Notes: a model not told the origin generated them from the letters alone. 64,000 bases of DNA from an uncultured Candidatus Saccharibacteria bacterium (GCA_964515375.1 CAZERF010000001.1:45777-109776); one strand, 5' to 3'. Shown: positions 9,866 through 46,867, numbered from the stretch's first letter. Made by a program: numbers and translations.

Positions 9866-9938
9866 GGTACGGCGGTGATGGTGGTTCCTTTGAGGAATCG
9901 AACCATGATGAGATGTGAATGTTATTTTTGCTCCCGTA
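9866..9938 (+). repeat. Direct repeat copy 2 (73 bp), overlapping the 5' end of tRNA-Arg
   Basis: Exact copy of 9657-9729. Confidence 0.8.
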
Positions 9939-10001
9939 GTTCAATGGATAGAACAGCTCCGTCCTAAGGAGTTGATGGTGGTTCGATTCCTCCCGGGAGC
10001 A
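9930..10001 (+). tRNA. tRNA-Arg (anticodon CCT)
   Basis: Hand-folded. The acceptor stem is GCTCCCG/CGGGAGC. The D arm is GTTC-AATGGATA-GAAC. The anticodon stem is GCTCC/GGAGT with loop GTCCTAA. The T arm GGTGG-TTCGATT-CCTCC has one U-U mismatch. No CCA is encoded. Confidence 0.65.
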
Positions 10002-11515
10002 CAAAACAAGACTTCTGACGAAGTCAACGAGCGCGGCGAAGCCGCGCGAGAAAAAGAAAAAGGAGAAATACGCCGTCGCTCCGCGACGAAATGGCTGGGC
10101 GAGGACACGGAAAAGTGGGCGGCTTTGTCACGAACTGCATGGTTCGTTCCAATTTTTTGGACGAAGTCGGCAATTTCGGAGAAATTGTCAGACGAGGACA
10201 AAAAAGTGGCTTGTTTCGTATCTTTTACCCACTCCCGCAATGGTTCGATCCAAGTATTTCCCCGACGTTCACAATCTTTCTTTTTCTCGTTCAAAGTTGC
10301 GAGAGAGCGCATGGTAGCATCCTTCTTTTTCAGATAAATCTCTTTGGGTATGTCTCCATCCAAGTATGTTGAAACGAGTTTGTCCATGCGCTCCTCGTCC
10401 GCTTTGATTTTTTCGGAAAGATTGCGAACCTCGCTCCCTGAAACGGAAGTAGCTTCTTGCTCCCATGTCTCAACTTGCTCCAACATCCAATCGGTATAGC
10501 GATCAGGGAGCGAGATTGTTTGAAGCCGTACTTGCAACTGCTCTGCGAGGTTTCGCTCTTGCACGTACCCTTGCGAGCAAGTGCCGTGCTTTTTGGTACA
10601 GCGATAGTAGCGATAGATACCACCATTGCCTTTGGCGTGTTGCGCCGTGAACATGCCACCGCACTCCCCACAGCGAAACAAGCCAAGAAACGGAAAGTCA
10701 TGCCTGTTCCTTCGCTTCGGCGCACGCGCCTTGCTCGCAAGAACTTTTTGCACGGCTTCAAACAATGTCGGTGAAATAATTGGTTCAAATGTGCCATCAA
10801 ACCATTCACCATTGTGGCGAACAAAACCGAGATATGCTCGATTGCTCAAAAGGTGCCTGACGGCACATTTGGCAAGTGGCTTTCCTTTCGAACTGGTAAC
10901 GCCTAAATCCGCCAAAAACTGCGACAAACTAACAAGACCATGCGTGCCTTTGGCATATTCCTCAAAAGCGCAAGCAACAATCTTTGAATTAGTCGGATGA
11001 GGTTCGATGTTTCTCGTTTTCTGATTGTTCACATACCCAAACGGCGCTTTGGTGAGCCATTCGCCACGGCGCAGTTTTTGGCGGATGCCTCTTTTCACAT
11101 TCTGTACCAAATTGTCCGAGTAGTATTTAGATTGCCCAAAAGCCACTTGCAACATAAAGAGCCCTTGCGGAGTGGGTTCAAACCAAAAGGTCGGAAAGCG
11201 CAAAGACACAATACGCTCGGTATCCACCGCATAGATGACGCGGCCTCCATCAATACTATTTCTAGCCAGACGGTCGGGGTGCCATGCGAGTATCCCCGAA
11301 GCTTCTCCCGTTTCAATGCACGTCATCATCTCATTAAAAATAGGACGACCGGGTGTCTTTGCGCTTTTCGACTCTTGAAACTCCGACAGAATTTCAAGAT
11401 TTTCTTTACGTGCAAATTCATGTAGTTCAAACAACTGCGCTTCTATACTCATGACTTGTTTATCGTCATCTTCGGTGCTTTTTCGAGCGTAAAGAAAATA
11501 TTTTGGTTTGATCAT
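9941..11515 (-). CDS. Large serine recombinase (resolvase/invertase N-terminal domain + recombinase domain + zinc ribbon)
   Basis: The N-terminus YARKSTEDDDKQ carries the catalytic Ser in the resolvase motif. DRLARN and a recombinase domain follow. The zinc ribbon is CGECGG...YYRC. The C-terminal ~60 codons of the ORF are encoded by IR1-left and end inside the tRNA-Arg gene. The true stop may therefore differ. Confidence 0.85.
   Translation of the reverse strand: MIKPKYFLYARKSTEDDDKQVMSIEAQLFELHEFARKENLEILSEFQESKSAKTPGRPIFNEMMTCIETGEASGILAWHPDRLARNSIDGGRVIYAVDTERIVSLRFPTFWFEPTPQGLFMLQVAFGQSKYYSDNLVQNVKRGIRQKLRRGEWLTKAPFGYVNNQKTRNIEPHPTNSKIVACAFEEYAKGTHGLVSLSQFLADLGVTSSKGKPLAKCAVRHLLSNRAYLGFVRHNGEWFDGTFEPIISPTLFEAVQKVLASKARAPKRRNRHDFPFLGLFRCGECGGMFTAQHAKGNGGIYRYYRCTKKHGTCSQGYVQERNLAEQLQVRLQTISLPDRYTDWMLEQVETWEQEATSVSGSEVRNLSEKIKADEERMDKLVSTYLDGDIPKEIYLKKKDATMRSLATLNEKKKDCERRGNTWIEPLREWVKDTKQATFLSSSDNFSEIADFVQKIGTNHAVRDKAAHFSVSSPSHFVAERRRISPFSFSRAASPRSLTSSEVLFCAPGRNRTTINSLGRSCSIH
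9999..10129 (+). repeat. Inverted repeat IR1, left copy (131 bp); it starts inside the 3' end of tRNA-Arg
   Basis: Its reverse complement is identical to 11567-11697 (checked base by base at both ends). Confidence 0.85.
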
Positions 11516-11566
11516 AATTTTTTCCCATTAAAAAGATTGATAAAAATCATGCGATACGAAACAAGA

Positions 11567-11697
11567 GACAAAGCCGCCCACTTTTCCGTGTCCTCGCCCA
11601 GCCATTTCGTCGCGGAGCGACGGCGTATTTCTCCTTTTTCTTTTTCTCGCGCGGCTTCGCCGCGCTCGTTGACTTCGTCAGAAGTCTTGTTTTGTGC
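11567..11697 (+). repeat. Inverted repeat IR1, right copy
   Basis: Reverse complement of 9999-10129. Confidence 0.85.
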
Positions 11698-11935
11698 AGA
11701 AATACTGACCTTTGCTCGAACCCATTTCGAGAAAGGACAATGATCGTGCCGCGCGGAGCGCGTGGTGATGCGAACGCGAAGCGTACGCATTCGGAAATGT
11801 CTGCGCGCCTCGCTGCCTCGCCAGCTCGGCTCCCAAAACCAAAGAAATATCCTTACAATCATTTTTTCGGTGGAGGGGTGTGGGGAGGAGCCGACAGAAA
11901 AAGGAAAGGATATTTCTTTGGTTTGGGATCGCCGC
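11695..11935 (+). repeat. Inverted repeat IR2, left copy (241 bp), abutting IR1-right
   Basis: Its reverse complement matches 13643-13884 with a single mismatch. Confidence 0.85.
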
Positions 11936-12028
11936 AATGAGTTCTTAAAAATCATTTCCCCACCATTACCCTAGTATATTATACTATAATAGTCGTGTAT
12001 AATGTAATAGTTGGGTATAATTGTGGAT

Positions 12029-12232
12029 ATGAATGAGTCCGCAATGCTCGGCAACAATTTGAAAAGGATTCGCGAAGCGAAAAATATGTCTCAAGGTGAC
12101 ATCATGCGCTCTTTGGGATGTAGTCGTAGTTACATAAGTAATATAGAGAACGGAAAAACTAATCCAACACTTTCAACTATCGCTAAGTTGGCAAAAGCGG
12201 TTGGTGTTCCACTTAATAAGTTATTGCAATAA
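12029..12232 (+). CDS. XRE-family helix-turn-helix transcriptional regulator
   Basis: MNESAMLGNNLKRIREAKNMSQGDIMRSLGCSRSYISNIENGKTNP is a canonical HTH_3 motif. It lies in an AT-rich segment. The TTG at 12011 is an alternative start. Confidence 0.8.
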   Translation: MNESAMLGNNLKRIREAKNMSQGDIMRSLGCSRSYISNIENGKTNPTLSTIAKLAKAVGVPLNKLLQ

Positions 12233-12236
12233 GTTT

Positions 12237-13199
12237 ATGAAATCGAAAGCCATCATTATAATTTTTATACTTTTTGTTCTGTTATTTTTAGGTGGCAGAT
12301 ACATTTACTATGGTTCTGTAACGCGCGATTGTATTTATACTGAAAACAAGTTACCCGTACCTGGAGCACTCGAAGCCGGTACTGTAGTTGTGGCAAAGGA
12401 TGCCTACTTAGCTATCGGCATAGACAAAGAGCATGAATGCTTGGACTCGTTTGGAAAAATAGACAGGGAGATTGTAGGACCAGACACAATCAACAACCTT
12501 ACGATAGGAAGGCAATATTTTACTAACAGAGGACTATCTGTACAGACACTTAAAAAGGGAAATGAGTTCAAAGTTGTTGATATTATCTCCGTCACTAAAC
12601 ACGGTCTGTCAACGATAGATTCTGGGCCAGGGCCTATCTATTATCTTATTTTGCAAAGTAGCGACGGGTTACTTTACCAAATTGCAACAGTATCACTCGG
12701 ACTTAATAAACAAGACTTGTTTCTTGCTTTTGTTGACGGTACCCAGAATTACGATCCATCCGCTCCCCAGCTATTAAGTCCAGACAGTTTTAACGAGACT
12801 TATAGTTATGAAGGAGCAGATTCACTCACGTATACTGGAAAACTAACTCAATTAACAGACGATTATCTTCAAAGTACAGAACCACAGTGGAAAAAGTTAG
12901 CAGACCGACTTGAGCGTGGTGAAAAATTTCTCATCATGGTAGATATTGACTTACGAGATGATGCTTTCAGACCGATTATCCTCTCTGAAAACTCAGAAGC
13001 AAGATACAATCAAGTAGCTCAAATACAAGACGAGTTTCTTAAAAAGATACCAAATAATATTGTCCTGAACGGACTTGAAAAAAACCAATCTTGGCCATAT
13101 ATCTCTATGGAGGCAAATCTAGATTTATTGAATTACTTGGTTGATCATCAGGTAGAGTTAAAAATTAAGTCAATATCTGAACTACAAAAAGTGCAGTAA
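12237..13199 (+). CDS. Hypothetical membrane-anchored protein (AT-rich cargo gene)
   Basis: The ATG is 4 nt after the XRE stop. The N-terminal TM anchor is KAIIIIFILFVLLFLGG, followed by a ~290-aa soluble domain. No family was recognised. GC content is far below the flanks. Confidence 0.55.
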   Translation: MKSKAIIIIFILFVLLFLGGRYIYYGSVTRDCIYTENKLPVPGALEAGTVVVAKDAYLAIGIDKEHECLDSFGKIDREIVGPDTINNLTIGRQYFTNRGLSVQTLKKGNEFKVVDIISVTKHGLSTIDSGPGPIYYLILQSSDGLLYQIATVSLGLNKQDLFLAFVDGTQNYDPSAPQLLSPDSFNETYSYEGADSLTYTGKLTQLTDDYLQSTEPQWKKLADRLERGEKFLIMVDIDLRDDAFRPIILSENSEARYNQVAQIQDEFLKKIPNNIVLNGLEKNQSWPYISMEANLDLLNYLVDHQVELKIKSISELQKVQ

Positions 13200-13642
13200 A
13201 AACGTCCGTCTCGCTATCCCCGCGGCAAGCCGACGGGGCATTACGCGGGCGGAATCGGGCGTTTTTGCTAGTTAAGGAATCCCCTCCGGTGATACTTTGT
13301 TTAATGTCGCATTCATCCTCGAGGCAAGCCCACGAGGCATTCTGCGACGTTCTAGTAAAAGACATTCGAGTGTCACGAAAAAGATTGGTTTGTATAGCAG
13401 GTTTTTGAAATCGTAATACACTCAACCGAAGCCACTAAGCTCACACACGGAAGCACCGCAGCAGCTCGCGCGAGCGGAGCGAGCGAGCTGTGCGGAGGTG
13501 CTGGAGTGTAGTGAGCGAACGTTAGAATCACCACGCAGGTTCGCTACGGGAGAGCGCCTCGCACGCCGCGAGTACGGAGAAAAGCGAAGTGGAAGACTCT
13601 CAAATAAAATGGGAACTGAAACAAAGCTTTTTGGAGGACAAA

Positions 13643-13884
13643 GCGGCGATCCCAAAACAAAGAAATATCCTTTCCTTTTTCTGTCGGCTCCTCCCCACAC
13701 CCCTCCACCGAAAAAATGATTGTAAGGATATTTCTTTGGTTTTGGGAGCCGAGCTGGCGAGGCAGCGAGGCGCGCAGACATTTCCGAATGCGTACGCTTC
13801 GCGTTCGCATCACCACGCGCTCCGCGCGGCACGATCATTGTCCTTTCTCGAAATGGGTTCGAGCAAAGGTCAGTATTTCTGCAC
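13643..13884 (+). repeat. Inverted repeat IR2, right copy
   Basis: Reverse complement of 11695-11935. Confidence 0.85.
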
Positions 13885-13918
13885 TTTTTCTTTCTTTCCC
13901 TCATGCTATAATAAACAG

Positions 13919-14216
13919 CATGGCGATATCAGAAGAAAGCGCGCATGACAAGCTCGACGAGGTGCTTGAGCTCGTTCGTGAGAACAACAAAATCCTCCGC
14001 ACAATGCATCGCCGTATGTTGTGGAGTCAGGTCTTTACTTTTGTATACTGGATCATCATTCTCGGCGTTGCGGGTTGGGCGTATTACTATTTCCAGCCGT
14101 ATGTTGAGCGTTATGTGAACACGTATCAGGCGATCGTCGGCAATCTTGAGAATCTTGATAGTCAAGGGACGGATTTCCCCAGTGAGCTCAAGTCGCTTCT
14201 TGATAAAGTAAGGTAA
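13919..14216 (+). CDS. Small membrane protein, hypothetical
   Basis: The ATG is at 13919, just past IR2-right (MAISEESAHDKLDEVLELV...). There is one TM helix, VFTFVYWIIILGVAGWAYYYF. The longer track ORF from 13716 would read through the repeat. Confidence 0.5.
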
Positions 14217-14241
14217 ATAAGGTATCCTTGAGGACATCGCA

Positions 14242-14317
14242 GTTGCGATATGCCGAGGTAGCTCAGTTGGTAGAGCGCTCGCCTGAAGAGCGATAGGTCA
14301 CCAGTTCGACCCTGGTC
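14242..14317 (+). tRNA. tRNA-Phe (anticodon GAA)
   Basis: Hand-folded. The acceptor stem is GCCGAGG/CCTCGGC. The D arm is GCTC-AGTTGGTA-GAGC. The anticodon loop is CTGAAGA. The T arm is ACCAG-TTCGACC-CTGGT. CCA is encoded. Confidence 0.85.
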
Positions 14318-14320
14318 CTC

Positions 14321-14505
14321 GGCACCACAATAGGCTCAGTTGGTGAGCAAAGTCTGCTTCTGAAAGCAGACACCAGGTTTGCTTTTTGGACAAGGTGTCC
14401 GCCACCGCGGACGCCAGCCACCACTCGTCTTCTTCGCCTTGCTGCGAAGTCGATCACCAATAGAGCGCATGCCTTTCGAGCGACGGGTCACCAGTTCGAC
14501 CCTGG
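14321..14505 (+). repeat. Scrambled tRNA-Phe-derived sequence: D-arm copy + 110-nt insert with three hairpins + copy of the tRNA 3' two-thirds (14451-14505)
   Basis: TAGGCTCAGTTGGTGAGC matches the Phe D arm with one inserted G. 14451-14505 (TAGAGCGCATGCCTTTCGAGCGACGGGTCACCAGTTCGACCCTGGTCCTCGGCAC) matches the tRNA-Phe 3' portion except in the anticodon arm. No 5' acceptor strand is present. Confidence 0.7.
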
Positions 14506-14572: not shown

Positions 14573-15124
14573 TTACACTGATTTCACCTTCAATTCCTGA
14601 ATGCGTTTGGTGTCAAATTTTGAGAGTCGAATGATGAGCAGTCCGTATCTTTCGACGGCGTCAGCCTTGTCTGGATCGACTTCATGCGGAAGTTCGATCT
14701 CGCGACGGAACGGACCCCAATAGAGTTCTCGAATGGCATAATTTTCATCAGGGATTCCTTCCGGCTCATTGCGCCTACCCTCTATGGTGATCGTTTTTCG
14801 TGTGATCGAAATATGAAGATTCTCGGGCATGACCCCCGCGATCATACACTGAACGATGATCTCGTTGTCTACCTCATAGAGGTCAACTGCCATTCCGGGA
14901 ACTTCGCTCTCGTCTTCTTCCTCAGGATCCTCGTCCGACTCTTCTTTTGCCTCGTCTTCTTTGTGCTCATCTTGAGACAAAAGGAGCTCCTCATCGTGTT
15001 CGGTGAGTTCCTTTTCAGGCTGGGAAATTTTGCGTTCTTGGTATTCCTCCTCTTCAAGCTCGTCCGGTACAAAGGGGCGTGACCCTGTCAGATGTTCGAG
15101 AAATGATGGTTTGCGTCCTTTCAT
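14573..15124 (-). CDS. Hsp20/alpha-crystallin family small heat-shock protein with an acidic N-terminal extension
   Basis: There is an alpha-crystallin domain (VDLYEVDNEIIVQCMIAGVMPENLHISI...AIRELYWGPFRREIELP). The N-terminus is rich in E/D. Confidence 0.8.
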   Translation of the reverse strand: MKGRKPSFLEHLTGSRPFVPDELEEEEYQERKISQPEKELTEHDEELLLSQDEHKEDEAKEESDEDPEEEDESEVPGMAVDLYEVDNEIIVQCMIAGVMPENLHISITRKTITIEGRRNEPEGIPDENYAIRELYWGPFRREIELPHEVDPDKADAVERYGLLIIRLSKFDTKRIQELKVKSV

Positions 15125-15888
15125 AGATGAGAAGAGATATTATTGGGTAAGAATACAGTGACCGTTCCTGTGTTCGAGTATTCGACATGACTCCGTGGTG
15201 GCATCCGTTTGATCCGCTCGCAAGCAAGAAGGAGTCCCAAGACAAATACCCAAAGCACAATGAAGATCTCATAGATATATGAACCCTCACTTACAATTAT
15301 AGAGAAGTTGAAGAGGGTATGCAACACGATCGCACTTATGAGTCCGATCCCCGCAACGATCTGTCGCATGGAACGCTTTTGATAGAACGCGAGCGCAAGC
15401 ATGACACCGATCGTTCCGCTTGCGGCGACATGAAGTAGCGTCGCACCAACAAAGCGGAAGTTCCCGAGCATGATCGCGGCAAGAGTATCCCCACCGGAAA
15501 GGGGGTTGTAGAGGAAGAGTGCGTTTTCAAGTGCTGAAAAACCAAGCGCGATCGTCACAAGATAGATGACCGCGTCGATCGGTTCGTCGAAAAATCGTGT
15601 ACGTAAGGCGACGATGTAGATGCCGAGGAACTTGAGCGTCTCTTCCGCAACAGCCCAAAGGAACAAGAGGGAAAGCTCGCTTCCTTGTACATGTGTCGCA
15701 ATGAAGCGCTCGACCGGATACGCAAGCGCGGTCGCCAGCATTCCGACAAGAAACGAGAGGAGGATCAGCGCCCGAGGCTCCGGGTGTAGGCGGTCTTCCT
15801 TGAGCCAGAACCAAAGCCAAAAGACGGCGGGAAGCAGTCCTCCCAGTAACGCAAAAAAGATAATCGTTGGTGTCATGCTGTCGGCCAT
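15121..15888 (-). CDS. PrsW/CPBP-like intramembrane metalloprotease
   Basis: The 255-aa ORF has ~7 TM helices. AEETLKF (EExxK), FSALEN and two conserved His residues in TM helices fit the PrsW protease family. It overlaps the Hsp20 start by 4 nt. Confidence 0.55.
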   Translation of the reverse strand: MADSMTPTIIFFALLGGLLPAVFWLWFWLKEDRLHPEPRALILLSFLVGMLATALAYPVERFIATHVQGSELSLLFLWAVAEETLKFLGIYIVALRTRFFDEPIDAVIYLVTIALGFSALENALFLYNPLSGGDTLAAIMLGNFRFVGATLLHVAASGTIGVMLALAFYQKRSMRQIVAGIGLISAIVLHTLFNFSIIVSEGSYIYEIFIVLWVFVLGLLLACERIKRMPPRSHVEYSNTGTVTVFLPNNISSHL

Positions 15889-18119
15889 GCGGTCACCAGA
15901 AGTGGCTCCTTATGCTCAGGGAGCGATTGCCAGATCTCTTCGGTCACGTAGGGGATGAAGGGGTGCTGTAGTTTAAGTAGAGTGATAAAGAGGTGTCGTA
16001 GTGTCCATTGCGCGGAGCGTTTCTCGGGAGAGTCGGGGCCGTTTAGGAGCGCTTTTTCTTGCTCAATGATCACGTCCGCGAATTCGTTCCATGTGTAGTG
16101 ATAGAGTCGCTCTCCCGCAAGGTGGAGTTTGTATTCCTCGATATGTTTGGTCACAAAACGAGTGAGCTCATTAAGATCATCGATCAATTTTTTGTGCGCG
16201 GGAAGAATCTCAGGTTTGGCGTCTTCGGGAAGGTCTTCTGTGGTACTGATGACAAATCGAGCAATGTTCCAGATCTTGTTGGTGTATTTTTTGTAACCGC
16301 GGATCTTTTCTTCGGAAAGATTGATGTCGGATCCGGGTCCGGTACCGATGAGGAGCGAAAGGCGAGTGGCGTCCGCGCCATATTTTACGATCATGTCGAG
16401 CGGGTCGATCGCGTTGCCTTTTGATTTCGACATCTTTTGACCCTTGCTGTCGTGGACAAGTCCGTGGAGGTAAACCTTTTCGAATGGGATCTCTCCGAGG
16501 TGGTACGTAGACATGAGGACCATACGTGCAACCCAAAAGAAGAGGATGTCGTACCCTGTTTCAAGGAGCTGCGTCGGGTGGTATGTCTGCAAGTCAGTTG
16601 CATCTTCGTCTGGCCATCCGAGTGTCGAGAACGTCCAGAGTCCCGACGAGAACCATGTATCAAGCGTGTCGGGGTCCTGCTCCCATCCGTCTCCTTCCGG
16701 CGCCTCTGTTTCGACAAGAACCTCTTCCTGCTCGCCGGTCTTTTTGTACCAGACGGGAATACGATGTCCGTACCAGATCTGTCTCGAGATGCACCAATCA
16801 CCTAGATTGTCGATCCACTGGAAGTAGGTCTTGTTGAATCGCTCAGGAAGGATCTCGACTTGTTCATTCTCGACCACTTTGCCCATTAGCTCTTTAAGGG
16901 TTACTTGGTCACCCGCTTCGAGTCCTTTGATGTTTGAGCGTTTGAGTGTGAAGGGTTTGTTGACCGCGATGAACCATTGGAGTTTGGGGAGGGGCTCGAT
17001 GACTGCGCCGGTGCGTTCCGCAGTTGAAACATTTTGTTTGACATCTTCCTCGCCCGTCAAGAGTCCTTCCTCTTTGAGCCAGGTTACGATCGCCTCGCGC
17101 GCTTCATTGACCTTCCTTCCGAGTATGCGTTCATCTCCGACCGTTATCTTTGCATACTCGTTGATCACCGGTTTCACCTCAAGATGGTGACGCTGCGCGA
17201 TATCCCAGTCGATGCGGCTGTGCGCGGGGGTGACCCCAAGCGCCCCGGTCCCGAATTCTTTGTCCACGGTGTGATCGGCAATCACCTTGATCGTGAGGGG
17301 GACACCACAAAAGGTCACCTTGTATTCCTTTCCAACATACGCCTTGTAGCGTTCATCGTCGGGATGCACTGCGACCGCAGTATCCCCGACCTTTGTTTCC
17401 GGTCGAGTCGTGGAGATGGGAATAGGGAAGTCCTTTGCGTAGGTGAAAGTATAAAGCTTCGCGCTTCGTTCTTCGTAGACGATCTCGTCATCTGAGATCG
17501 TTGTCTGTCCTTTGGGGTCCCAGTTGATGACACGGTATCCGCGATAGATGAGACCGTCATCGTACATGCGTTTGAAGGCAGTGCGGACAGCAAGGGAACG
17601 TTCATCGTCGAGTGTGAACGCCTCGCGAGACCAGTCGACCGATGCCCCCATTTTCTTGACCTGATGTACGATCGTGTCGTGACTCTCTTGAGCAAATTGC
17701 CGTACCCGAGCGAGAAACTCTTCTCGTCCAAGATCGTGTCGTGATAGACCTTTTTCCTTTTGAAGGATCTTTTCCACTTTTGATTGAGTGGCGATGGCCG
17801 CATGGTCGGTACCCGGGATCCACAATGTACGTTTTCCCGACATGCGGTGGTATCGCACGACGGTGTCTTCGATCGCAAGCATCGCGGCGTGGCCCATATG
17901 AAGGACTCCCGTTACATTTGGAGGGGGGAGTACGATCGCGAAGGTTTTTGCATCGGGTTTCGTGTGACCCTTTGCAACAGAGGTGTCGGGGTTAAAATAT
18001 CCCGAATCAAGCCAATCCCGATAGATCCTATCTTCGGTCTCTTCGGGTTTGTAGGGAGAAAGAAACTTGTTGTCCATGTTGCCCATCATACCACAGATTC
18101 TAAAAACGTGAGTGTTCAT
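15873..18119 (-). CDS. valS: Valyl-tRNA synthetase (short form lacking the C-terminal coiled-coil)
   Basis: PPPNVTGVLHMGHA is the HIGH-type motif. GTDHAAIATQ is present. KMSKSKGN is the KMSKS motif. Similarity to ValRS extends throughout. Confidence 0.95.
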   Translation of the reverse strand: MNTHVFRICGMMGNMDNKFLSPYKPEETEDRIYRDWLDSGYFNPDTSVAKGHTKPDAKTFAIVLPPPNVTGVLHMGHAAMLAIEDTVVRYHRMSGKRTLWIPGTDHAAIATQSKVEKILQKEKGLSRHDLGREEFLARVRQFAQESHDTIVHQVKKMGASVDWSREAFTLDDERSLAVRTAFKRMYDDGLIYRGYRVINWDPKGQTTISDDEIVYEERSAKLYTFTYAKDFPIPISTTRPETKVGDTAVAVHPDDERYKAYVGKEYKVTFCGVPLTIKVIADHTVDKEFGTGALGVTPAHSRIDWDIAQRHHLEVKPVINEYAKITVGDERILGRKVNEAREAIVTWLKEEGLLTGEEDVKQNVSTAERTGAVIEPLPKLQWFIAVNKPFTLKRSNIKGLEAGDQVTLKELMGKVVENEQVEILPERFNKTYFQWIDNLGDWCISRQIWYGHRIPVWYKKTGEQEEVLVETEAPEGDGWEQDPDTLDTWFSSGLWTFSTLGWPDEDATDLQTYHPTQLLETGYDILFFWVARMVLMSTYHLGEIPFEKVYLHGLVHDSKGQKMSKSKGNAIDPLDMIVKYGADATRLSLLIGTGPGSDINLSEEKIRGYKKYTNKIWNIARFVISTTEDLPEDAKPEILPAHKKLIDDLNELTRFVTKHIEEYKLHLAGERLYHYTWNEFADVIIEQEKALLNGPDSPEKRSAQWTLRHLFITLLKLQHPFIPYVTEEIWQSLPEHKEPLLVTAWPTA

Positions 18120-18133
18120 AACGTTTTCACGAT

Positions 18134-18190
18134 ATGTCCTTTATGTCTTATAAAGGACATATGTATAAAGGACATCATGATGTCCTTTAT
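18134..18190. promoter_or_regulatory. Cluster of four 11-mer half-sites (ATAAAGGACAT / ATGTCCTTTAT) in the divergent valS / surface-protein intergenic region
   Basis: The arrangement is ATGTCCTTTAT-gtct-TATAAAGGACAT-atg-TATAAAGGACAT-CATG-ATGTCCTTTAT. The last two half-sites form a perfect 26-bp palindrome. Confidence 0.5.
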
Positions 18191-18492
18191 ACGGCTGTGT
18201 AGAGCCATAAAAAGAAACACCACATATTGACATTTTTGTAAAATTCGCTTACACTTAGGTTTAATCAACTCTGGTTCTTAACAGCATTGCAACGACAACG
18301 CGAACAAGATCGAGTCTCGATCATTGTCCTCGCAGATTGCTAGGGTGTCTCCTGTTTTTATTTGATCCTTGTTTCTTTGTGATCTCTGTATTGCTTTGTT
18401 TTGGATGCAAGATCTCCGTGCATTTTTGCATGTCTTTTATTACCAAATAGTATCGTTATTTCTCGCTATCTTATAAATCATCATTCTCGCTT

Positions 18493-21400
18493 ATGAACTC
18501 CGTATACCCATCTTATAAACGTCCATTCTACCTCATGCTTCGCCCGGTCTTCGTGTGGATCATGACCTTTTCTTTGCTACTCCAAACGAGTGCTGTTCTT
18601 CCGCTTGTCGCGGATGCGAACGTACTTGTGAATGTGTCACATTCGGACGGCACAACATCGACCTACGATCTGAAGGAAACCGAGGACGACATCATTGTTT
18701 CGTACTCCATGGGGGAAACGGATGGATCGGGCGCTCCGACTCTCGATGCGCTCTCCGGCCTGCTTGGCCTTTTGGATTCTTCCCTTACGGAGGTGAAGGC
18801 GGAAACGTCCTGCACGGGGAACGGAACTGCGACGGCAAGTGCGAGCGTGACGGATACAGTCACGATCGAAGGCGAGACGGTTGTTGCGACAGCGAGCGCG
18901 CAATCGACGGTGACCTGTTCTGACGGCGAAACAACCCCCGTCAACACTCCTCCCTCCGTGACGCTTCTTGGCGGAACCCCGATGTCCGTGACGCTTGGTA
19001 CATCCTTTGTCGATCCAGGTGCGAACGCCACCGACGCGGAGGATTGTGTCGGACTCACACAGAGCGCGTGTAATACGGCGTTGTCCTTGACGGCGACGGG
19101 TGTCGTGAACACGAATACTCTTGGAACCTACACGATCACCTACACTGCACGCGATTCGAGTGGAGCATTGGCCGTTCCTGTCACTCGTACGGTTATTGTG
19201 ATCGCTCCGTCAACGACAGAGTGTCGTGCTCCGAGTGATATTATGCTTGCGATCGATCGTTCGGGAAGTATGAATGATGATGGGACAAATCCTGATCAAC
19301 CGATGACCTTTGCGAAGGATGCGGCAAAGAACTTTATTGATAGTCTCTCTGCAACAGATGATCGTGTTGGAGTGGTGTCTTTTAGCACTCTCGCGCGACT
19401 CGATGTGTCTTTGACGAATGATTTCCCTCAAGCAAAATCGGCGCTCACCGGACTCATCGCGGAGGGGTGGACAAATATTGCTGAAGCGCTTCTTTTCTCC
19501 TCGAACGACCTTACTGCGAACGGACGAACCAACGCTCGTCAGATCATTATTTTGCTCTCCGACGGAAGACCGGAACCTGACACGAACGCTGGCACCGTTG
19601 CCGCGATCCAGAACGAAGGGGTATGTCATCTACACGATCGGGCTCGGTTCTGGAATTTCTGCTCCGCTTATGCAGGAGATCGCCACGAGTCCCGCGCACT
19701 ACTTCTTCGCGGCATCCGGTACCGACCTCGACGCCATCTATCAATCCATCTTGAGTGTTGAATGTGCACTTCCGAAAGGTTCCGTTTCGGGCCACAAGTA
19801 TCATGATGTTGACGCAAACGGTTCCTTTGGAGACGGCGACACTGTCGTATCGGGATGGGGGATCACCCTTACTCCGAACTCGAGCACTCTTGGCTCTCCT
19901 CGTACGGTGACCACCGACTCTTCCGGCGCGTATACATTCACTGACGTTCAAGCCGGAGACTATACATTGTGTGAGGCGTCGCGAAGCGGATGGACGCAGG
20001 TGGCACCGACCGCGAATAACGGTTGTTACCTTGTCTCTGTTGTCGACAACGTGGATCTGACCGGAAAGAATTTTTACAACAAAGAGCAGGTGACTCCGCC
20101 CGTCAACACTCCTCCCTCCATCACGCTTCTTGGTGCGAACCCGCTCTCGCTGACTGTTGGTGCATCATTCACCGATCCGGGTGCGAACGCTACCGACGCG
20201 GAGGATTGTGTCGGACTCACACAGAGCGCGTGCAATACGGCGTTGTCCTTGACGGCGACGGGTGTGGTTAATACCGGTTCAATCGGCACTTATACTGTTA
20301 CCTATACCGCTCGTGACTCACAGGGTCTTCAGGCGATTCCGGTGACTCGCACGGTAAATGTGATCGCGCTTCCTCCTCCCGACAACACTCCTCCGGTGAT
20401 CACCGTACTTGGGAACAACCCGCTTTTGGTTCGCATCGGTACTATCTTCACCGACCCGGGTGCGACCGCTGCTGATGCTGAAGATGGCAACATTACCGAC
20501 GATATTGTGAAGACCGGCACCGTGAACACGGCGCAGGTGGGGAACTATACGATCCGCTACAACGTCACTGACTCCGACGGGGCAGCGGCAACGGAGAAGA
20601 CCCGCACGGTCACCGTGTTCTCCGCATGTTCCGACGGTCTCGACAACGATGGCGACGAAACGATCGACTTGAATGATGAAGGATGCACTGATCCGAACGA
20701 CGACAGCGAGAACGAGAAGCCGGTCATTGAACTCATTGGCGAGACTCCCATGTCCGTGACCCTTGGTGCAACCTTTACCGATCCGGGCGCCAACGCGACC
20801 GATACGGAAGATTGTATCGGGCTCACACAGAGTGCGTGCAACACCGCACTTCAATTGACAGCGACGGGTGTTGTGAACACGAATACTCTTGGAACCTACA
20901 CGATCACCTACACGGCACGCGATTCGGAAGGTCTTGAGGCGACTCCGGTCACGCGTACTGTGAACGTGGTCTCCACACCTCCGCCCGCCAATACACGCCC
21001 CGTTATTACGCTCCTTGGCGCGGACCCGCTTTTGGTTCGCATCGGTACAACTTTTGCTGATCCGGGTGCGAACGCCACCGATGCAGAGGATTGTGTCGGA
21101 CTCACACAGAGCGCGTGCAACACCGCACTTCAATTGACAGCGACGGGCACCGTGAACATCGCGCAAGTGGGGAACTATACGATCACCTACACGGCGAAGG
21201 ATTCTCGGGGACTCGAAGCGACTCCGGTCACGCGTACGGTCACCGTGTTCTCCGCATGTTCCGACGGCGTCGACAATGACGGCGATGAAACGATCGACTT
21301 GAATGATGAAGGATGCACTGATCCGAACGATGACAGTGAGAACGAGAAGCCGGTCATCACGTTGCTTGGAAATGTCGCCATGCAACTCATCTTGGGCACG

Positions 21401-23086
21401 ACCTTTACTGATCCGGGTGCGAACGCCACCGACGCGGAGGATTGTGTCGGACTCACACAAGCGGAATGCAACGAGATCCTTGACCTTACCGCAACAGGAA
21501 CGGTCAACACCACGCAGCTTGGCACTTACACTATTACGTACACCGCACGCGATTCGGAAGGCCTTCAGGCTGACCCTAAGACGCGCACCGTGAGTGTGAT
21601 TCAGCAGAGTATTCCGGGATGCACGAGCAACTGTGGTGGAGGTGAGACAAATACTCGCCCGGTGATCACCATGCTCGGCAACAACCCGATCTCTGTTCAA
21701 CAAAACACGACCTTTACCGATCCGGGTGCGACGGCGTGGGACTCGGAAGACGGAGATATCACCAGCAAGATCATTGTCTCGGGTACGGTCGACACTACTC
21801 GCCTCGGTTCCTACAACATCGCGTACAACGTGACGGATTCGAAGGGACTTCCCGCACAAGAGCGCACACGCACGGTCAACGTTGTTCCGTGTACAAGCAA
21901 CTGTGGTGGAGGTGGGGGCGGTGGTAGTGTGACCCTCTCGATTTACAACGAGCGCCTCGCGGTGACCGGCACGACAACTGTTGTTGTGACCTGGAATACC
22001 AACATCCCCGCGGATAGTCGCGTGGTCTACGGACTCAATTCTGTTACTTCGCCCGCGTCTGCCCCGTACTACGGATACCCTCTGACCACGGCCACATCGA
22101 CGACCTATACCACCACACACTCGATGACGATCACCGGAATTCCGTCCATGATCGCGACGTACTATCGACCTGTCTCGACGAACGGCGCACTTGTTGCGGT
22201 GGGGCGTGAGCTTACGCGCGCACCCGAGGTGCCGACCGTGATCGGCGGTTCGTGTGAATACTTGAAGGAATATCTCCGCATCGGGTACAACAACAACCCG
22301 ACCGAGGTCTTGAAGCTCCAGCTTTTCCTCAAGAACTTTGAAGGATTTGCCAACATCTCGACCAGCGGATTCTTTGACGAAGTGACTGATCGCAGTGTCC
22401 GCATCTTTCAGGATCGCTACGCGGCCGACATCTTGACCCCGTGGAACCTTCCCGGCAACACTGGCTATGTCTACTATACGACCAAGAAGAAGATCAACGA
22501 GATCTATTGTCAGCGCGAGTTCCCGCTCACCCCGGCACAGTTGGCCGAGATCGCGGAGTTCCGTGAATTGATCCGTCGCATCGGCGCTCCGGTCTCGGGC
22601 GGTGAAACGGTTACGGTCCCGACCTCAACCGGCGGCACGGCGGTGGTCACTGTTCCCGTCGTTGGTCGCAATGACACACAGTCTTCGACGCAAGGTGCGG
22701 TCGCGGGGGCGGCAACCGTCTCCAATGTTCCCGGTGCGGCAACTTCCACTGCGACAGGGACACAAGCATCGAGTGGTCGCAACGGCATCGCGCTTGCCGA
22801 CCTCCTTGCTACTTCTCCTAGTGTCGGACGGGAACTTCAAAATGGTGAAGCCGCATACGACACCGGGGTGGCCACTTCCGTCTCGGGTGACCCGAGCGCG
22901 CTCTTGAAGCAGAACGCCATTCAGGCGGCGATCGGAGCAATCTCCGACGCGACCCACATCTCGGAAAAGGTTTTGCTCGCAGGACTCCTCTTCCTGATCA
23001 TCCTCATCATCGTTGCGGTCGTGATCGTGTGGAGAATGATCGCACGTCGCAAGCAAAATGAGATGAAACTCCCGAAGCAACTCTAA
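18493..23086 (+). CDS. Giant cell-surface protein (signal peptide, repeated Ig-like DUF5011-type domains, vWA domain, Cys/Asp-rich Ca-binding-like linkers, peptidoglycan-binding domain, C-terminal TM anchor), interrupted by a +1 frameshift near 19615-19625
   Basis: Track ORFs 18493-19761 and 19418-23086 are contiguous parts of one reading frame. The vWA domain starts in the first ORF (MIDAS DRSGSM, LSDG) and continues in the second (GYVIYTIGLG...YFFAASGTDLDAIYQSI). Removing one G from the GGGG run at ~19617-19620 restores AIQNEGYVIYTIGLG. Confidence 0.7.
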
Positions 23087-23100
23087 CGACTACACAAACA

Positions 23101-23140
23101 AAAAGAAATACGCCTCACTCGAGGCGTATTTCTTTTTGTT
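23101..23140. terminator. Bidirectional terminator between the convergent surface-protein and tsaD genes
   Basis: Hairpin AAAAGAAATACGCCTC-actc-GAGGCGTATTTCTTTT followed by TGTTG. Confidence 0.65.
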
Positions 23141-23163
23141 GCTTCACTTTGCGTCGCGCGTAT

Positions 23164-24342
23164 TTATTTTTCATTGGCACTCTCCGAGATCTTCCAGTTG
23201 CCTTTCGCGCGCATCGTCCGCGCTTTGGGGTCGGGAGTGTTGAAGCATGCCGCGATCGCGATCATGAGTGCGTTGTCGGTAGAGAGTCCGGGTTTGGGAA
23301 TTTCGAGTGAAACATCGGGGAAGCGCGCGCCGAGGTCATGCGCTATCCGTGCTCTCAATGAGGCGTTCGCCGAGACCCCGCCGCCTACGATAACGCTCCT
23401 TGCTCCAAATTCCTCCACCGCGCGGAGTGTTTTTGCGGTGAGGACATCGACACAGGCGTCTTCGAATTCGCGCGCGATATGGGCCTTCTTTTCCTCGCTC
23501 AGCGTGTCGATCTTTTGTACCGTATAGAGCACAGCGGTCTTGATCCCGGCAAAAGAGAAATCGTAGTCTCCCGAGTGGAGCATCGGGCGGGGAAGCGGGT
23601 AGGACCCAGGCGTTCCCTTTTGAGCAAGGCGCGCGATCTCCGGACCGCCGGGGTAGGGGAGTCCGAGCATGCGCGCGACCTTGTCGAACGCTTCGCCCAC
23701 CGCATCGTCGCGTGTCGTTCCGATCACTCGATACGCCCCCCATCCTTCCATGAGTACCAACTCCGTATGTCCTCCCGAGACGAGGAGTCCGATAGCGGGG
23801 AATGCGTCGTGCGCGAGGTGCGTCGCCCCATCCTCTTTGCGCTTGAGAAGGGGAGCGAGGAGATGCCCCTCCATGTGGTTGACGGGAACAAGCGGAAGGT
23901 TCCAGAGGTGTGCGAGTGCTTTTGCAAAATTGATACCGACCCACAGCGCCGGTTCGAGCCCTGGTCCGCGCGTGACCGCGATCATGTCGATATCGGGCGG
24001 TGTGATGTCGGGGATCTTGGTCACGAATTGCGTGAAGAGTTCGGGCTCCTTTTCGAGGATATCCTGAAATTCCGCGCGGAGGGGACTTTCGATCACGTGG
24101 CGACTTGTTTCTCGTTTGAGTCCCGCGTCGTCGAGTGTCTTGATGAGAAGCGGAACAAGCGCGCGCGCATGCTCTCGTTTGGCAAGCATGGGGAAGACCC
24201 CGCCGTATTCTTTGTGGATGTCGATCTGGGAAAGCGTGTTGTCGGCGAGGACGCGCAGTGTGATGGAGGGCAATTCACCTTCCGTCTCCACGATCGCGAT
24301 CGCGGTCTCGTCGCAGCTGGTCTCGATAGCAAGGATACGCAT
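23164..24342 (-). CDS. tsaD: tRNA N6-adenosine threonylcarbamoyltransferase TsaD (Kae1/Gcp family) with a ~45-aa C-terminal extension
   Basis: MRILAIETSCDETAIAIVE N-terminus. HMEGHLLA and a GGVSAN-like motif are present. Confidence 0.9.
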   Translation of the reverse strand: MRILAIETSCDETAIAIVETEGELPSITLRVLADNTLSQIDIHKEYGGVFPMLAKREHARALVPLLIKTLDDAGLKRETSRHVIESPLRAEFQDILEKEPELFTQFVTKIPDITPPDIDMIAVTRGPGLEPALWVGINFAKALAHLWNLPLVPVNHMEGHLLAPLLKRKEDGATHLAHDAFPAIGLLVSGGHTELVLMEGWGAYRVIGTTRDDAVGEAFDKVARMLGLPYPGGPEIARLAQKGTPGSYPLPRPMLHSGDYDFSFAGIKTAVLYTVQKIDTLSEEKKAHIAREFEDACVDVLTAKTLRAVEEFGARSVIVGGGVSANASLRARIAHDLGARFPDVSLEIPKPGLSTDNALMIAIAACFNTPDPKARTMRAKGNWKISESANEK

Positions 24343-46835: not shown

Positions 46836-46867
46836 CATAAAGGACATTCTGTGAATTGTCCTTTATG
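46836..46867. promoter_or_regulatory. Second copy of the ATAAAGGACAT operator-like inverted repeat (9-nt spacer)
   Basis: CATAAAGGACAT-tctgtgaat-TGTCCTTTATG lies in the divergent intergenic region between the S1 protein gene and the MBL-fold gene. Confidence 0.5.

What the first reader, a model, noticed from the sequence alone, without database searches (positions are those of the whole stretch)
18493..23086. Giant surface protein with near-identical nucleotide-level domain repeats, Ca-binding-like Cys/Asp linkers and a peptidoglycan-binding module
At least seven DUF5011-type Ig-like repeats are present (consensus TPPxITLLGxNPLxVxxGxxFTDPGAxAxDAEDCVGLTQSACNTALxLTATGxVNT..GTYTITYTARDS.GL.A.PVTRTV.V). 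Several share long stretches of identical DNA, e.g. around 19060 and 20215, which makes them recombination-prone. They are interspersed with CSDG(L/V)DNDGDETIDLNDEGCTDPNDDSENE linkers. The protein also carries a vWA domain, a PG_binding_1-like segment (LKLQLFLKNFEGF...VTDRSVRIFQDRY) and a C-terminal TM anchor. It is likely a major adhesin or episymbiont-host contact protein.
Basis: partly seen in the sequence, partly recalled or inferred. Interest (0 to 1): 0.5.

Follow-up and report, generated by a model that had tools for sequence, protein, structure and literature searches.

The report
Broken surface adhesin gene, Paceibacteria
This is a gene for a long, stalk-like cell-surface protein of an ultrasmall (CPR/Paceibacteria) bacterium, built from ordinary adhesin modules and tied to its own membrane and cell wall, but in this assembly a 17-base deletion splits it into two reading frames.

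Summary
There are exactly seven PF16403 Ig-like repeats and two acidic Cys-bracketed linkers. There is also a vWA domain with a complete MIDAS motif, a PG_binding_1-fold domain and a C-terminal TM helix.

Two points do not hold:
- **Not one ORF.** 18493-23086 is two overlapping ORFs, 18493-19761 and 19418-23086. Compared with an intact 1521-aa ortholog (L081, 86% DNA identity), the window lacks 17 nt inside the vWA domain after position 19613.
- **Repeats are not near-identical.** Units are 61-78% identical in DNA. Exact tracts of 32-44 nt do exceed expectation and show patchy gene conversion.

New context: the C-terminal FN3 + PG-binding + spacer + TM module is conserved across Paceibacteria. 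It sits at a fixed locus between valS and tsaD, while the ectodomain varies (354-2039 aa).

Best reading: a membrane-anchored, wall-tethered stalk adhesin with a vWA tip, inactivated here by a recent deletion or an assembly fault. The adhesin function is inferred. It is a new member of a known kind, of moderate interest.

The parts
18132..18192 (.). Four exact copies of ATAAAGGACAT/ATGTCCTTTAT forming two perfect palindromes in the divergent valS / surface-gene intergenic region. Candidate operator or leader hairpins.
   Evidence: 8 matches in the window against 0.71 expected; the same clusters in the same intergenic region of most related loci and in L081
18227..18255 (+). Sigma-70-like promoter candidate, TTGACA-17-TACACT.
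   Evidence: This stretch is identical in L081 (sequence print). It is a consensus match only.
18493..19761 (+). ORF-A (422 aa): signal peptide, N-terminal family-specific region, Ig repeat 1 and most of the vWA domain, then about 47 out-of-frame residues and a stop.
   Evidence: Identical to the NCBI CDS P0108.
18493..18618 (+). Sec-type signal peptide (basic n-region, hydrophobic core, A-D-A motif).
   Evidence: Hydropathy and direct reading of the sequence. The cleavage site is inferred.
18619..18942 (+). N-terminal region of about 108 aa with one Cys pair (C107/C142), shared with P0002-P0005 and P0109. No family match.
   Evidence: no NCBIfam hit; no Pfam hit
18952..19200 (+). Ig-like repeat R1 (PF16403, Cys-insert type).
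19222..19765 (+). vWA domain bracketed by C244 and C424. MIDAS residues are D255, S257, S259, T327 and D357. The domain is interrupted by the frameshift.
19613..19614 (+). Junction of a 17-nt deletion (CGCAAATAGCGCCAAGG in the ortholog L081). It shifts the frame from 1 to 2.
   Evidence: The intact ortholog P0109 reads AAIQNANSAKAKGYIIYTIGLG.
19418..23086 (+). ORF-B (open from 19418; NCBI calls 1111 aa from TTG 19751): rest of the vWA domain, the SdrD_B-like domain, six Ig repeats, linkers, FN3, the PG-binding domain, spacer and TM anchor. It has no signal peptide of its own.
19775..20083 (+). SdrD B-like / prealbumin-like domain.
   Evidence: PF17210, 33.8 bits against cut-off 29.7; SdrD chain hit
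20114..20617 (+). Ig-like repeats R2 (20114-20362, Cys-insert type) and R3 (20393-20617, standard type).
20627..20716 (+). Acidic Cys-bracketed linker 1 (C712-C731) with the loop DNDGDETIDLND.
   Evidence: NF033662, sub-threshold; no Pfam hit
20720..21247 (+). Ig-like repeats R4 (20720-20968) and R5 (20999-21247), both Cys-insert type.
21257..21346 (+). Acidic Cys-bracketed linker 2 (C922-C941).
   Evidence: Concerted evolution with linker 1 is shown.
21350..21883 (+). Ig-like repeat R6 (21350-21598, Cys-insert type), a CTSNC-Gly connector (21620-21634) and R7 (21659-21883, standard type).
21926..22225 (+). FN3-like beta-sandwich domain, preceded by the CTSNC-Gly7 hinge at 21890-21925.
   Evidence: AF2 model with pLDDT 91. 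The top Foldseek PDB hits are FN3 domains.
22238..22585 (+). PG_binding_1-fold helical domain with an extension and conserved cysteines C1254 and C1339.
22586..22969 (+). Ala/Thr/Ser/Gly/Val-rich spacer with conserved motifs (LPLVG, GAVAGAAT, RGxIALADLLA).
22970..23086 (+). C-terminal transmembrane helix (22970-23041), basic cytoplasmic tail and stop codon.
   Evidence: No LPXTG motif.
23097..23140 (.). Hairpin with a 20-bp stem between the convergent surface gene and tsaD. Candidate bidirectional terminator.

Best explanation
The region holds one gene for a modular cell-surface protein of about 1535 aa. The host is a Paceibacteria (Patescibacteria/CPR) bacterium related to Candidatus Lloydbacteria.

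**Shown by the domain analysis, in order along the protein**
- Sec signal peptide, then a family-specific N-terminal region.
- One Ig-like domain, then a vWA domain with a complete MIDAS motif clamped by a Cys pair.
- An SdrD_B-like domain.
- A stalk of six more PF16403 Ig-like domains. Two acidic Cys-bracketed loops and two CTSNC-Gly hinges punctuate the stalk.
- An FN3-like domain, then a PG_binding_1-fold domain.
- A low-complexity spacer of about 128 aa, then a C-terminal TM helix with a basic tail.

**Inferred mechanism**
- After export the C-terminal helix stays in the membrane.
- The spacer crosses the wall zone and the PG-binding domain grips the cell's own peptidoglycan.
- The disulfide-stabilised, probably Ca-stiffened Ig stalk projects the metal-dependent vWA tip outward to bind a ligand on a partner cell or surface.

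**Shown about this copy and its family**
- In this assembly a 17-nt deletion in the vWA domain shifts the frame. The signal peptide and tip (ORF-A) are uncoupled from the stalk and anchor (ORF-B), so this copy cannot make the full protein.
- The anchor module and the locus (valS - gene - tsaD) are conserved across Paceibacteria, while the ectodomain is swapped freely.
- The repeats exchange short tracts by gene conversion.
For: **Domains**
- Pfam hits. NCBIfam LapB_rpt_80.
- The vWA domain aligns with its flanking cysteines to mussel PTMP1. It also hits the GBS pilus adhesin and CMG2.
- The MIDAS residues are present.

**Topology**
- Hydropathy shows an N-terminal signal and a single C-terminal TM helix followed by RRK.
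- All 26 Cys fall in 13 local pairs, as expected for an exported protein.

**Frameshift**
-. The intact ortholog is P0109 in L081.
- All other indels inside the CDS are multiples of 3.
- dN/dS is 0.043 before and 0.049 after the lesion.
- The window lineage shows no excess of amino-acid changes.

**Family and locus**
- 264 relatives of the module were found in GTDB species representatives, all named as Patescibacteria lineages.
- valS lies upstream in 38 of 48 loci with enough flank, and tsaD downstream in 48 of 66.
- Ectodomains range from 354 to 2039 aa, with 0-8 Ig repeats and a vWA domain in 6 of 80 loci.

**Gene conversion**
-.
Against: - No experiment or expression data bear on function. 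The adhesin role rests on analogy with vWA-tipped, Ig-stalk surface proteins.
- PG_binding_1 is below Pfam's threshold for this sequence (17.3 bits against 23).
- Ca binding by the linkers is inferred from a DxDxDxxxDxxD pattern only. There is no Pfam hit and the NCBIfam hit is below cut-off.
- The gene is disrupted here, so in this organism it may do nothing.
- I could not decide whether the deletion is biological or an assembly fault. No reads were available, and no independent contig carries either allele.
- PF16403 arrays can also build S-layer-like proteins.
Confidence: 0.6

Rival explanations
1. The family is the S-layer or main envelope-coat protein of Paceibacteria. A conserved wall/membrane anchor would carry a fast-evolving self-assembling ectodomain, rather than a ligand-binding adhesin.
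For: - The anchor is conserved and the ectodomain hypervariable, at a fixed housekeeping locus.
- Tandem PF16403 domains form an S-layer-like protein in Intestinibacter bartlettii (bioRxiv 10.1101/2025.04.02.646754).
- S-layers are reported for some Patescibacteria (PMC13293708).
Against: - The protein has 26 cysteines and a MIDAS vWA tip, which is adhesin-like. From my own knowledge, S-layer proteins are usually Cys-poor.
- The ectodomains use very heterogeneous domain types: cadherin-like, DUF11, F5/8 type C.
- There are no SLH or CWB2 hits.
- The gene is broken in this genome, which would be odd for a main coat protein.
Confidence: 0.12
2. The split is an assembly or consensus artefact, or a minority allele. 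The organism actually makes the intact protein of about 1535 aa.
For: - There is only one lesion, and all other indels are in frame.
- dN/dS is about 0.05 on both sides.
- There is no excess of lineage-specific substitutions.
- The locus is conserved across the class.
Against: - A 17-nt loss in non-repetitive, non-homopolymer sequence is not a typical sequencing error.
- The public record of the 239,949-bp contig carries the same split.
- The junction shows 2-nt microhomology (CG), as real deletions often do.
Confidence: 0.35
3. The PG-binding domain targets the peptidoglycan of a bacterial host, so the whole protein would be a host-wall grappling device.
For: Highly expressed secreted proteins with PG-binding domains in three Paceibacteria were proposed to act in host attachment (PMC10936435).
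Against: - The domain is the most membrane-proximal folded module, behind the FN3-like domain and a stalk of six Ig-like domains. It sits about 128 residues from the TM helix.
- The module is the conserved part of the family, while the distal parts vary. That is the reverse of what a host-specific binder should show.
- I could not test whether the published proteins belong to this family.
Confidence: 0.1
4. The two ORFs are expressed as one protein by programmed +1 ribosomal frameshifting or transcriptional slippage.
For: The two frames overlap over 19418-19761, so a +1 shift anywhere in that stretch would join them.
Against: - There is no slippery or prfB-like site at the junction.
- The lesion is a deletion relative to an in-frame ortholog and removes conserved residues (ANSAKA).
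- All full-length homologs are in a single frame.
Confidence: 0.03

Closest known systems
vWA-tipped Gram-positive surface and pilus adhesins with Ig-like stalks (for example GBS104/RrgA-type tip adhesins, and SdrD with its B repeats)
   Same: A MIDAS-containing vWA domain is presented distally on a stalk of Ig-like or prealbumin-like domains. The SdrD_B-like domain is present. PDB sequence hits include the GBS cell-wall surface anchor protein 3txa and SdrD.
   Different: There is no LPXTG sorting signal. Anchoring is by a C-terminal TM helix plus a non-covalent PG_binding_1-fold domain. There is no evidence of pilus polymerisation. The host is a CPR bacterium.
Listeria LapB / PF16403 (Bact_surface_Ig-like, formerly DUF5011) repeat proteins
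   Same: There are seven repeats matching PF16403 (E 6e-123) and NF033932 LapB_rpt_80 (E 2.4e-26).
   Different: Five of the seven repeats carry an 8-residue Cys...Cys insert (CVGLTQSAC). Among the loci examined, that insert appears only in the closest relatives. The anchor is different.
Mussel proximal thread matrix protein 1 (PTMP1) and VWF-A-type domains
   Same: PTMP1 is the best solved-structure match to the vWA domain (E 3e-18). The DxSxS motif aligns, as does the pair of cysteines flanking the domain.
   Different: PTMP1 is a eukaryotic collagen-binding matrix protein, so only the domain is shared. The ligand here is unknown.
PG_binding_1 domains of cell-wall enzymes (SleB N-terminal domain, phage endolysins, L,D-transpeptidases, Zn DD-peptidase 1LBU)
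   Different: No catalytic domain is attached. The domain carries a conserved extension (PWNLPGNTGYVYYTTKKKINEIYC) and a conserved Cys pair. Its sequence score is below Pfam's threshold.
Thrombospondin type-3-like / EF-hand-like DxDxDG calcium loops, and NCBIfam NF033662 acidic double-disulfide repeat
   Same: The linker loop DNDGDETIDLND has Asp at positions 1, 3, 5, 9 and 12 and Ile at position 8, and it is bracketed by cysteines. There are weak NF033662 matches (E 1.9e-7 for the whole protein, 3e-5 for a single linker).
   Different: The scores are below the NF033662 cut-off (30.7 against 41). There is no Pfam TSP_3 or EF-hand hit. Each unit has two Cys. Ca binding was not tested.

Membership tests
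PF16403 Bact_surface_Ig-like (DUF5011) | HMM score above the Pfam gathering threshold (27 bits) | tested here: met
   401.5 bits, E 6e-123, seven stretches. Seven units were recovered by the six-frame scan.
VWA (PF00092) | HMM score above the gathering threshold (23.8 bits) | tested here: met
   81.6 bits over aa 249-416 of the frame-restored protein.
VWA (PF00092) | MIDAS motif DxSxS...T...D | tested here: met
   D255, S257, S259, T327 and D357. The DxSxS motif aligns to PTMP1.
VWA (PF00092) | Domain encoded in one continuous reading frame | tested here: not met
   A 17-nt deletion after 19613 shifts the frame before the last beta-strand.
PG_binding_1 (PF01471) | HMM score above the gathering threshold (23 bits) | tested here: not met
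   17.3-18.3 bits, E 0.003-0.006 for this sequence. 29 of 31 family members match at E <= 0.01, with a best E of 6e-8.
PG_binding_1 (PF01471) | Helical-bundle fold of solved PG_binding_1 domains | tested here: met
PG_binding_1 (PF01471) | Binds peptidoglycan | not testable with these tools
   Needs a sacculus pull-down assay.
Sortase-anchored LPXTG surface proteins (MSCRAMM type) | LPXTG-like motif immediately before the C-terminal hydrophobic segment and basic tail | tested here: not met
   There is no LPxTG anywhere. The only loose matches (VPCTS at 1131, VPGAA at 1412) are far from the TM helix.
SdrD_B (PF17210) | HMM score above the gathering threshold (29.7 bits) | tested here: met
   33.8 bits, aa 436-507.
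Fibronectin type III | FN3 beta-sandwich fold | tested here: met
   The top 11 Foldseek PDB hits are all FN3 domains, and nearly all the rest are too (prob 1.0, E from 2e-4) for residues 1-100 of the model. Pfam fn3 itself was not hit for this sequence. There is only a weak Pur_ac_phosph_N match.
NF033662 acidic double-disulfide repeat | HMM score above the NCBIfam cut-off (41 bits) | tested here: not met
   30.7 bits for the whole protein and 23.7 bits for a single linker.
S-layer proteins | Known S-layer anchoring domain (SLH or CWB2), or lattice formation | tested here: not met
   No SLH or CWB2 hits in Pfam. Lattice formation cannot be tested with these tools.
Paceibacteria valS-tsaD locus anchor-protein family (defined here) | C-terminal FN3 + PG-binding + spacer + TM module, located between valS and tsaD | tested here: met
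   The module is 40-69% identical to 80 loci. The window has Hsp20-PrsW-valS upstream and tsaD downstream, as most of those loci do.

The most novel reading that the evidence does not exclude
The valS-tsaD locus would be a class-wide 'host-range cassette' of Paceibacteria. An invariant membrane/wall anchor (FN3, PG-binding domain, TM helix) would be placed under a conserved operator motif, and ectodomains would be exchanged onto it and remodelled by intragenic gene conversion to match different hosts. Under this reading the 17-nt deletion is a natural off-state of that determinant in a subpopulation.
Probability: 0.15. Interest if true: 0.6.

Novelty: new member of a known kind. Interest (0 to 1): 0.35.

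Why it matters
**Why it is ordinary.** Every module is a known one, and the overall design of tip, stalk and wall anchor is standard for monoderm surface adhesins. The finding itself is therefore not surprising.

**What is useful for people working on CPR bacteria:**
- The gene belongs to a family with a conserved anchor at a fixed chromosomal position across Paceibacteria. Its exposed part is highly variable. That makes it a concrete candidate for a host-contact or host-specificity determinant in a group where such factors are almost unknown.
- The anchoring solution is a TM helix plus a non-covalent PG_binding_1 domain, without sortase. This says something about envelope organisation in these cells.
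- This particular copy is broken. Anyone annotating or expressing it should start from the intact ortholog instead.

Tried and rejected
- **Homopolymer error.** I first took the frameshift for an extra G in the GGGG run at 19618-19621. Alignment to L081 showed a 17-nt deletion instead.
- **Programmed frameshift.** Rejected. There is no slippery site, and conserved residues are missing.
- **Exact look-ups of ORF-B and P0001 in the contig index.** Nothing was found.
- **Exact/gapped search across the deletion junction in metagenome contigs.** It gave 0 hits, so there is no independent evidence for either allele.
- **Pfam scan of the isolated linkers at E <= 10.** No hits.
- **Library-wide profile search with A1**. 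The profile kept Ig-repeat columns, so the counts (25,038, 10,503 and 2,898) are inflated by unrelated Ig-array proteins. They are not a family size.
- **Antisense ORF 20318-22120 (600 aa).** Treated as a by-product of a GC-rich repetitive coding region. The plus frame has dN/dS of about 0.05 and carries all the domain hits.
- **Literature searches for a description of this family.** Nothing specific was found.
- **Link to the PG-binding proteins of Kuroda et al. 2024.** The supplement holds no sequences, and the neighbouring genes there differ, so the link could not be verified.
- **Foldseek on the two-domain model.** It returned only FN3 hits. The helical domain had to be modelled and searched on its own.
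Full report
**1. What is at 18493-23086**

The interval is not a single ORF. ORF-A runs 18493-19761 (422 aa, frame 1). ORF-B is open over 19418-23086 (1222 aa, frame 2). The two overlap by 344 nt.

The sense of each frame changes at about 19610-19620, inside a vWA domain. Frame 1 reads ...IIILLSDGRPEPDTNAGTVAAIQN and then nonsense. Frame 2 reads nonsense and then KGYVIYTIGLGSGISAPLMQEIATSP....

I first assumed an extra G in a GGGG run and rebuilt a 1530-aa protein for the domain work. That assumption was wrong in detail. The 90%-identity cluster of the public CDS contains three proteins:
- the 422-aa ORF-A (P0108);
- the 1111-aa CDS from the same 239,949-bp NCBI contig (P0001);
- a 1521-aa intact protein from another NCBI assembly (P0109).

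The DNA encoding P0109 (L081, GCA_013565675.1) aligns to window 15319-23480 at 86% identity. It shows that the window lacks 17 nt (CGCAAATAGCGCCAAGG) after position 19613. Every other indel inside the CDS is a multiple of three. The intact protein reads AAIQNANSAKAKGYIIYTIGLG.

The lesion is therefore a frameshifting deletion in unique sequence, not a homopolymer slip.

**2. Is the gene otherwise alive?**
- Against L081, dN/dS is 0.043 upstream and 0.049 downstream of the lesion, with dS of about 0.7.
- With P0002 as outgroup, the window lineage has no excess of private amino-acid changes: 5 against 5 upstream, and 7 against 11 downstream.
- There are no other stops or frameshifts.

The lesion is thus either very recent, a minority allele, or an assembly fault. 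I could not tell which. No reads were available, and an exact/gapped search across the junction found no independent metagenome contig. As assembled, the signal peptide, tip and most of the vWA domain are uncoupled from the stalk and anchor. ORF-B has no signal peptide.

**3. Domain anatomy (frame-restored protein)**

| Residues (aa) | Feature | Evidence |
|---|---|---|
| 1-42 | Sec-type signal peptide | hydropathy, |
| 43-150 | family-specific region with no library match | |
| 249-416 | VWA, 81.6 bits | |
| 436-507 | SdrD_B, 33.8 bits | |
| seven units | PF16403 Bact_surface_Ig-like, E 6e-123; also NF033932 LapB_rpt_80 | |
| 1145-1244 | FN3-like | |
| 1249-1364 | PG_binding_1 fold | |
| 1365-1492 | Ala/Thr/Ser/Gly/Val-rich spacer | |
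| 1493-1516 | only other hydrophobic segment, followed by RRK | |

- *MIDAS:* residues D255, S257, S259, T327 and D357 are all present.
- *vWA relatives:* cysteines C244 and C424 bracket the vWA domain. The best solved relative is mussel PTMP1 (E 3e-18), and it aligns including those cysteines. The GBS pilus adhesin, SdrD, collagen VI and CMG2 follow.
- *Ig units:* the seven units lie at 18952-19200, 20114-20362, 20393-20617, 20720-20968, 20999-21247, 21350-21598 and 21659-21883. Five of them carry an 8-residue insert, CVGLTQSAC.
- *Linkers:* two 30-aa acidic linkers (20627-20716 and 21257-21346) are bracketed by cysteines. They contain DNDGDETIDLND, which has Asp at positions 1, 3, 5, 9 and 12 and Ile at position 8. 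From my own knowledge this is the spacing of EF-hand-like and thrombospondin type-3 Ca loops. The only library match is NF033662, below its cut-off, and Pfam finds nothing.
- *Hinges:* two CTSNC-Gly connectors follow repeats R6 and R7.
- *No sortase signal:* there is no LPXTG motif.
- *Cysteines:* all 26 sit in 13 local pairs.

**4. The C-terminal module**

An AF2 model of aa 1145-1381 has pLDDT 91.
- Residues 1-100 of the model are an FN3 sandwich. The top 11 Foldseek PDB hits are all FN3 domains, and nearly all the rest are too.

By sequence this copy scores only 17-18 bits against PF01471, whose cut-off is 23. However, 29 of 31 family members match at E <= 0.01.

**5. Family and locus**
- The module has 264 relatives among GTDB species representatives. 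The 80 loci kept are Patescibacteria: Lloydbacteria, Zambryskibacteria, Gribaldobacteria, Paceibacterota and 'Saccharibacteria'-labelled MAGs. The best identity is 65-69%, to Lloydbacteria.
- The window's neighbours are Hsp20, PrsW and valS (all on the minus strand) upstream, and tsaD (minus strand) downstream.
- The same arrangement holds in most loci. valS lies upstream in 38 of 48 loci with enough flank. tsaD lies downstream in 48 of 66.
- The proteins carrying the module range from 354 to 2039 aa. They have 0-8 Ig repeats and 0-5 acidic linkers, and only 6 of 80 have a vWA domain. Other members carry cadherin-like, DUF11 or F5/8 type C domains.

The anchor and its chromosomal slot are conserved, and the exposed part is exchangeable.

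**6. The repeats at DNA level**
- Whole units are 61-78% identical in DNA, so they are not near-identical.
- Ten exact tracts of at least 30 nt exist, the longest being 44, 44, 41 and 41 nt. Shuffling synonymous codons while keeping the protein gives a mean longest tract of 18 and a maximum of 32 in 300 trials.
- Comparison with L081 shows concerted evolution. The two linkers are 92% identical within each genome but only 87-88% identical between orthologs, with 7 concerted-pattern sites against 2 orthology-pattern sites.
- Two 44-nt tracts are 44/44 identical within the window and 42-43/44 within L081. Between orthologs they are only 37-39/44.

Short-tract gene conversion between repeats is therefore ongoing. 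Large identical units that would drive frequent unequal crossing-over are absent.

**7. Mechanism**

The architecture and topology signals above are shown. The following is inferred:
- the protein is a type-I, C-terminally membrane-anchored protein;
- the spacer spans the wall zone and the PG-binding domain holds the cell's own peptidoglycan;
- the disulfide- and probably Ca-stiffened Ig stalk projects a metal-dependent vWA tip that binds a ligand on a partner.

The rivals are an S-layer/coat protein, a host-PG binder, an assembly artefact and programmed frameshifting. Each is weighed in its own section of this report.

**8. Literature**

I found no description of this family. Kuroda et al. 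2024 (PMC10936435) report highly expressed secreted proteins with PG-binding domains in three Paceibacteria and propose a role in host attachment. I could not test whether those proteins belong to this family. A preprint shows that PF16403 tandem arrays can form an S-layer-like protein.

**9. Verdict**
- It is a new member of a known kind (a modular surface adhesin). Two context points are useful: the conserved anchor at a conserved locus in Paceibacteria, and the disruption in this assembly.
- Interest: 0.35.

Noticed in passing
18132-18192, 18430-18440, 46837-46866; also L081 2816-2872 and most of L001-L080: An 11-nt motif, ATAAAGGACAT, occurs four times in alternating orientation just upstream of valS, in the region shared with the surface gene. 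The copies form two perfect palindromes. It occurs once more as an inverted pair, between an S1-domain protein gene and an MBL-fold gene. That makes 8 matches against 0.71 expected. Clusters of the same motif sit in the same valS-side intergenic region in most related Paceibacteria loci, although the proteins there are only 40-70% identical. It may be a conserved operator, a promoter element or leader-RNA hairpins.
   Followed up: partly
9930-14330: A serine recombinase gene (9941-11515, minus strand; Resolvase + Recombinase + Zn_ribbon_recom) overlaps tRNA-Arg(cct). It is followed by ORFs with no family match and by the lowest GC in the window (0.43 at 12-14 kb), up to tRNA-Phe at 14252. This looks like an integrated mobile element or prophage remnant.
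   Followed up: no
14573-18119 and 23164-24342: The gene order Hsp20 - PrsW-family protease - valS - [surface gene] - tsaD is conserved across many Paceibacteria species. The surface gene is the only strongly variable member of the block.
   Followed up: yes
15873-18119 (minus strand): valS encodes only 748 aa and matches positions 4-697 of the 860-position ValRS model. It appears to lack the usual C-terminal extension.
   Followed up: no
23097-23140: A hairpin with a perfect 20-bp stem lies between the convergent stop codons of the surface gene (23086) and tsaD (23164). It is probably a bidirectional terminator.
   Followed up: no
20318-22120 (minus strand): A 600-aa antisense ORF lies inside the repeat region. 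It is most likely a by-product of GC-rich repetitive coding sequence, since all domain hits and the purifying selection are on the plus frame.
   Followed up: partly
22586-22969: The otherwise low-complexity spacer before the TM helix holds short motifs that are conserved across distant family members: LPLVG, GAVAGAAT and RGxIALADLLAxxP. Their role is unknown. They could be a processing or sorting signal, and a PrsW-family protease gene lies two genes away.
   Followed up: no
726-1067: A bacterial RNase P class A RNA (128 bits) and 11 tRNA genes are scattered through the window. This is consistent with a chromosomal, housekeeping-rich region.
   Followed up: no
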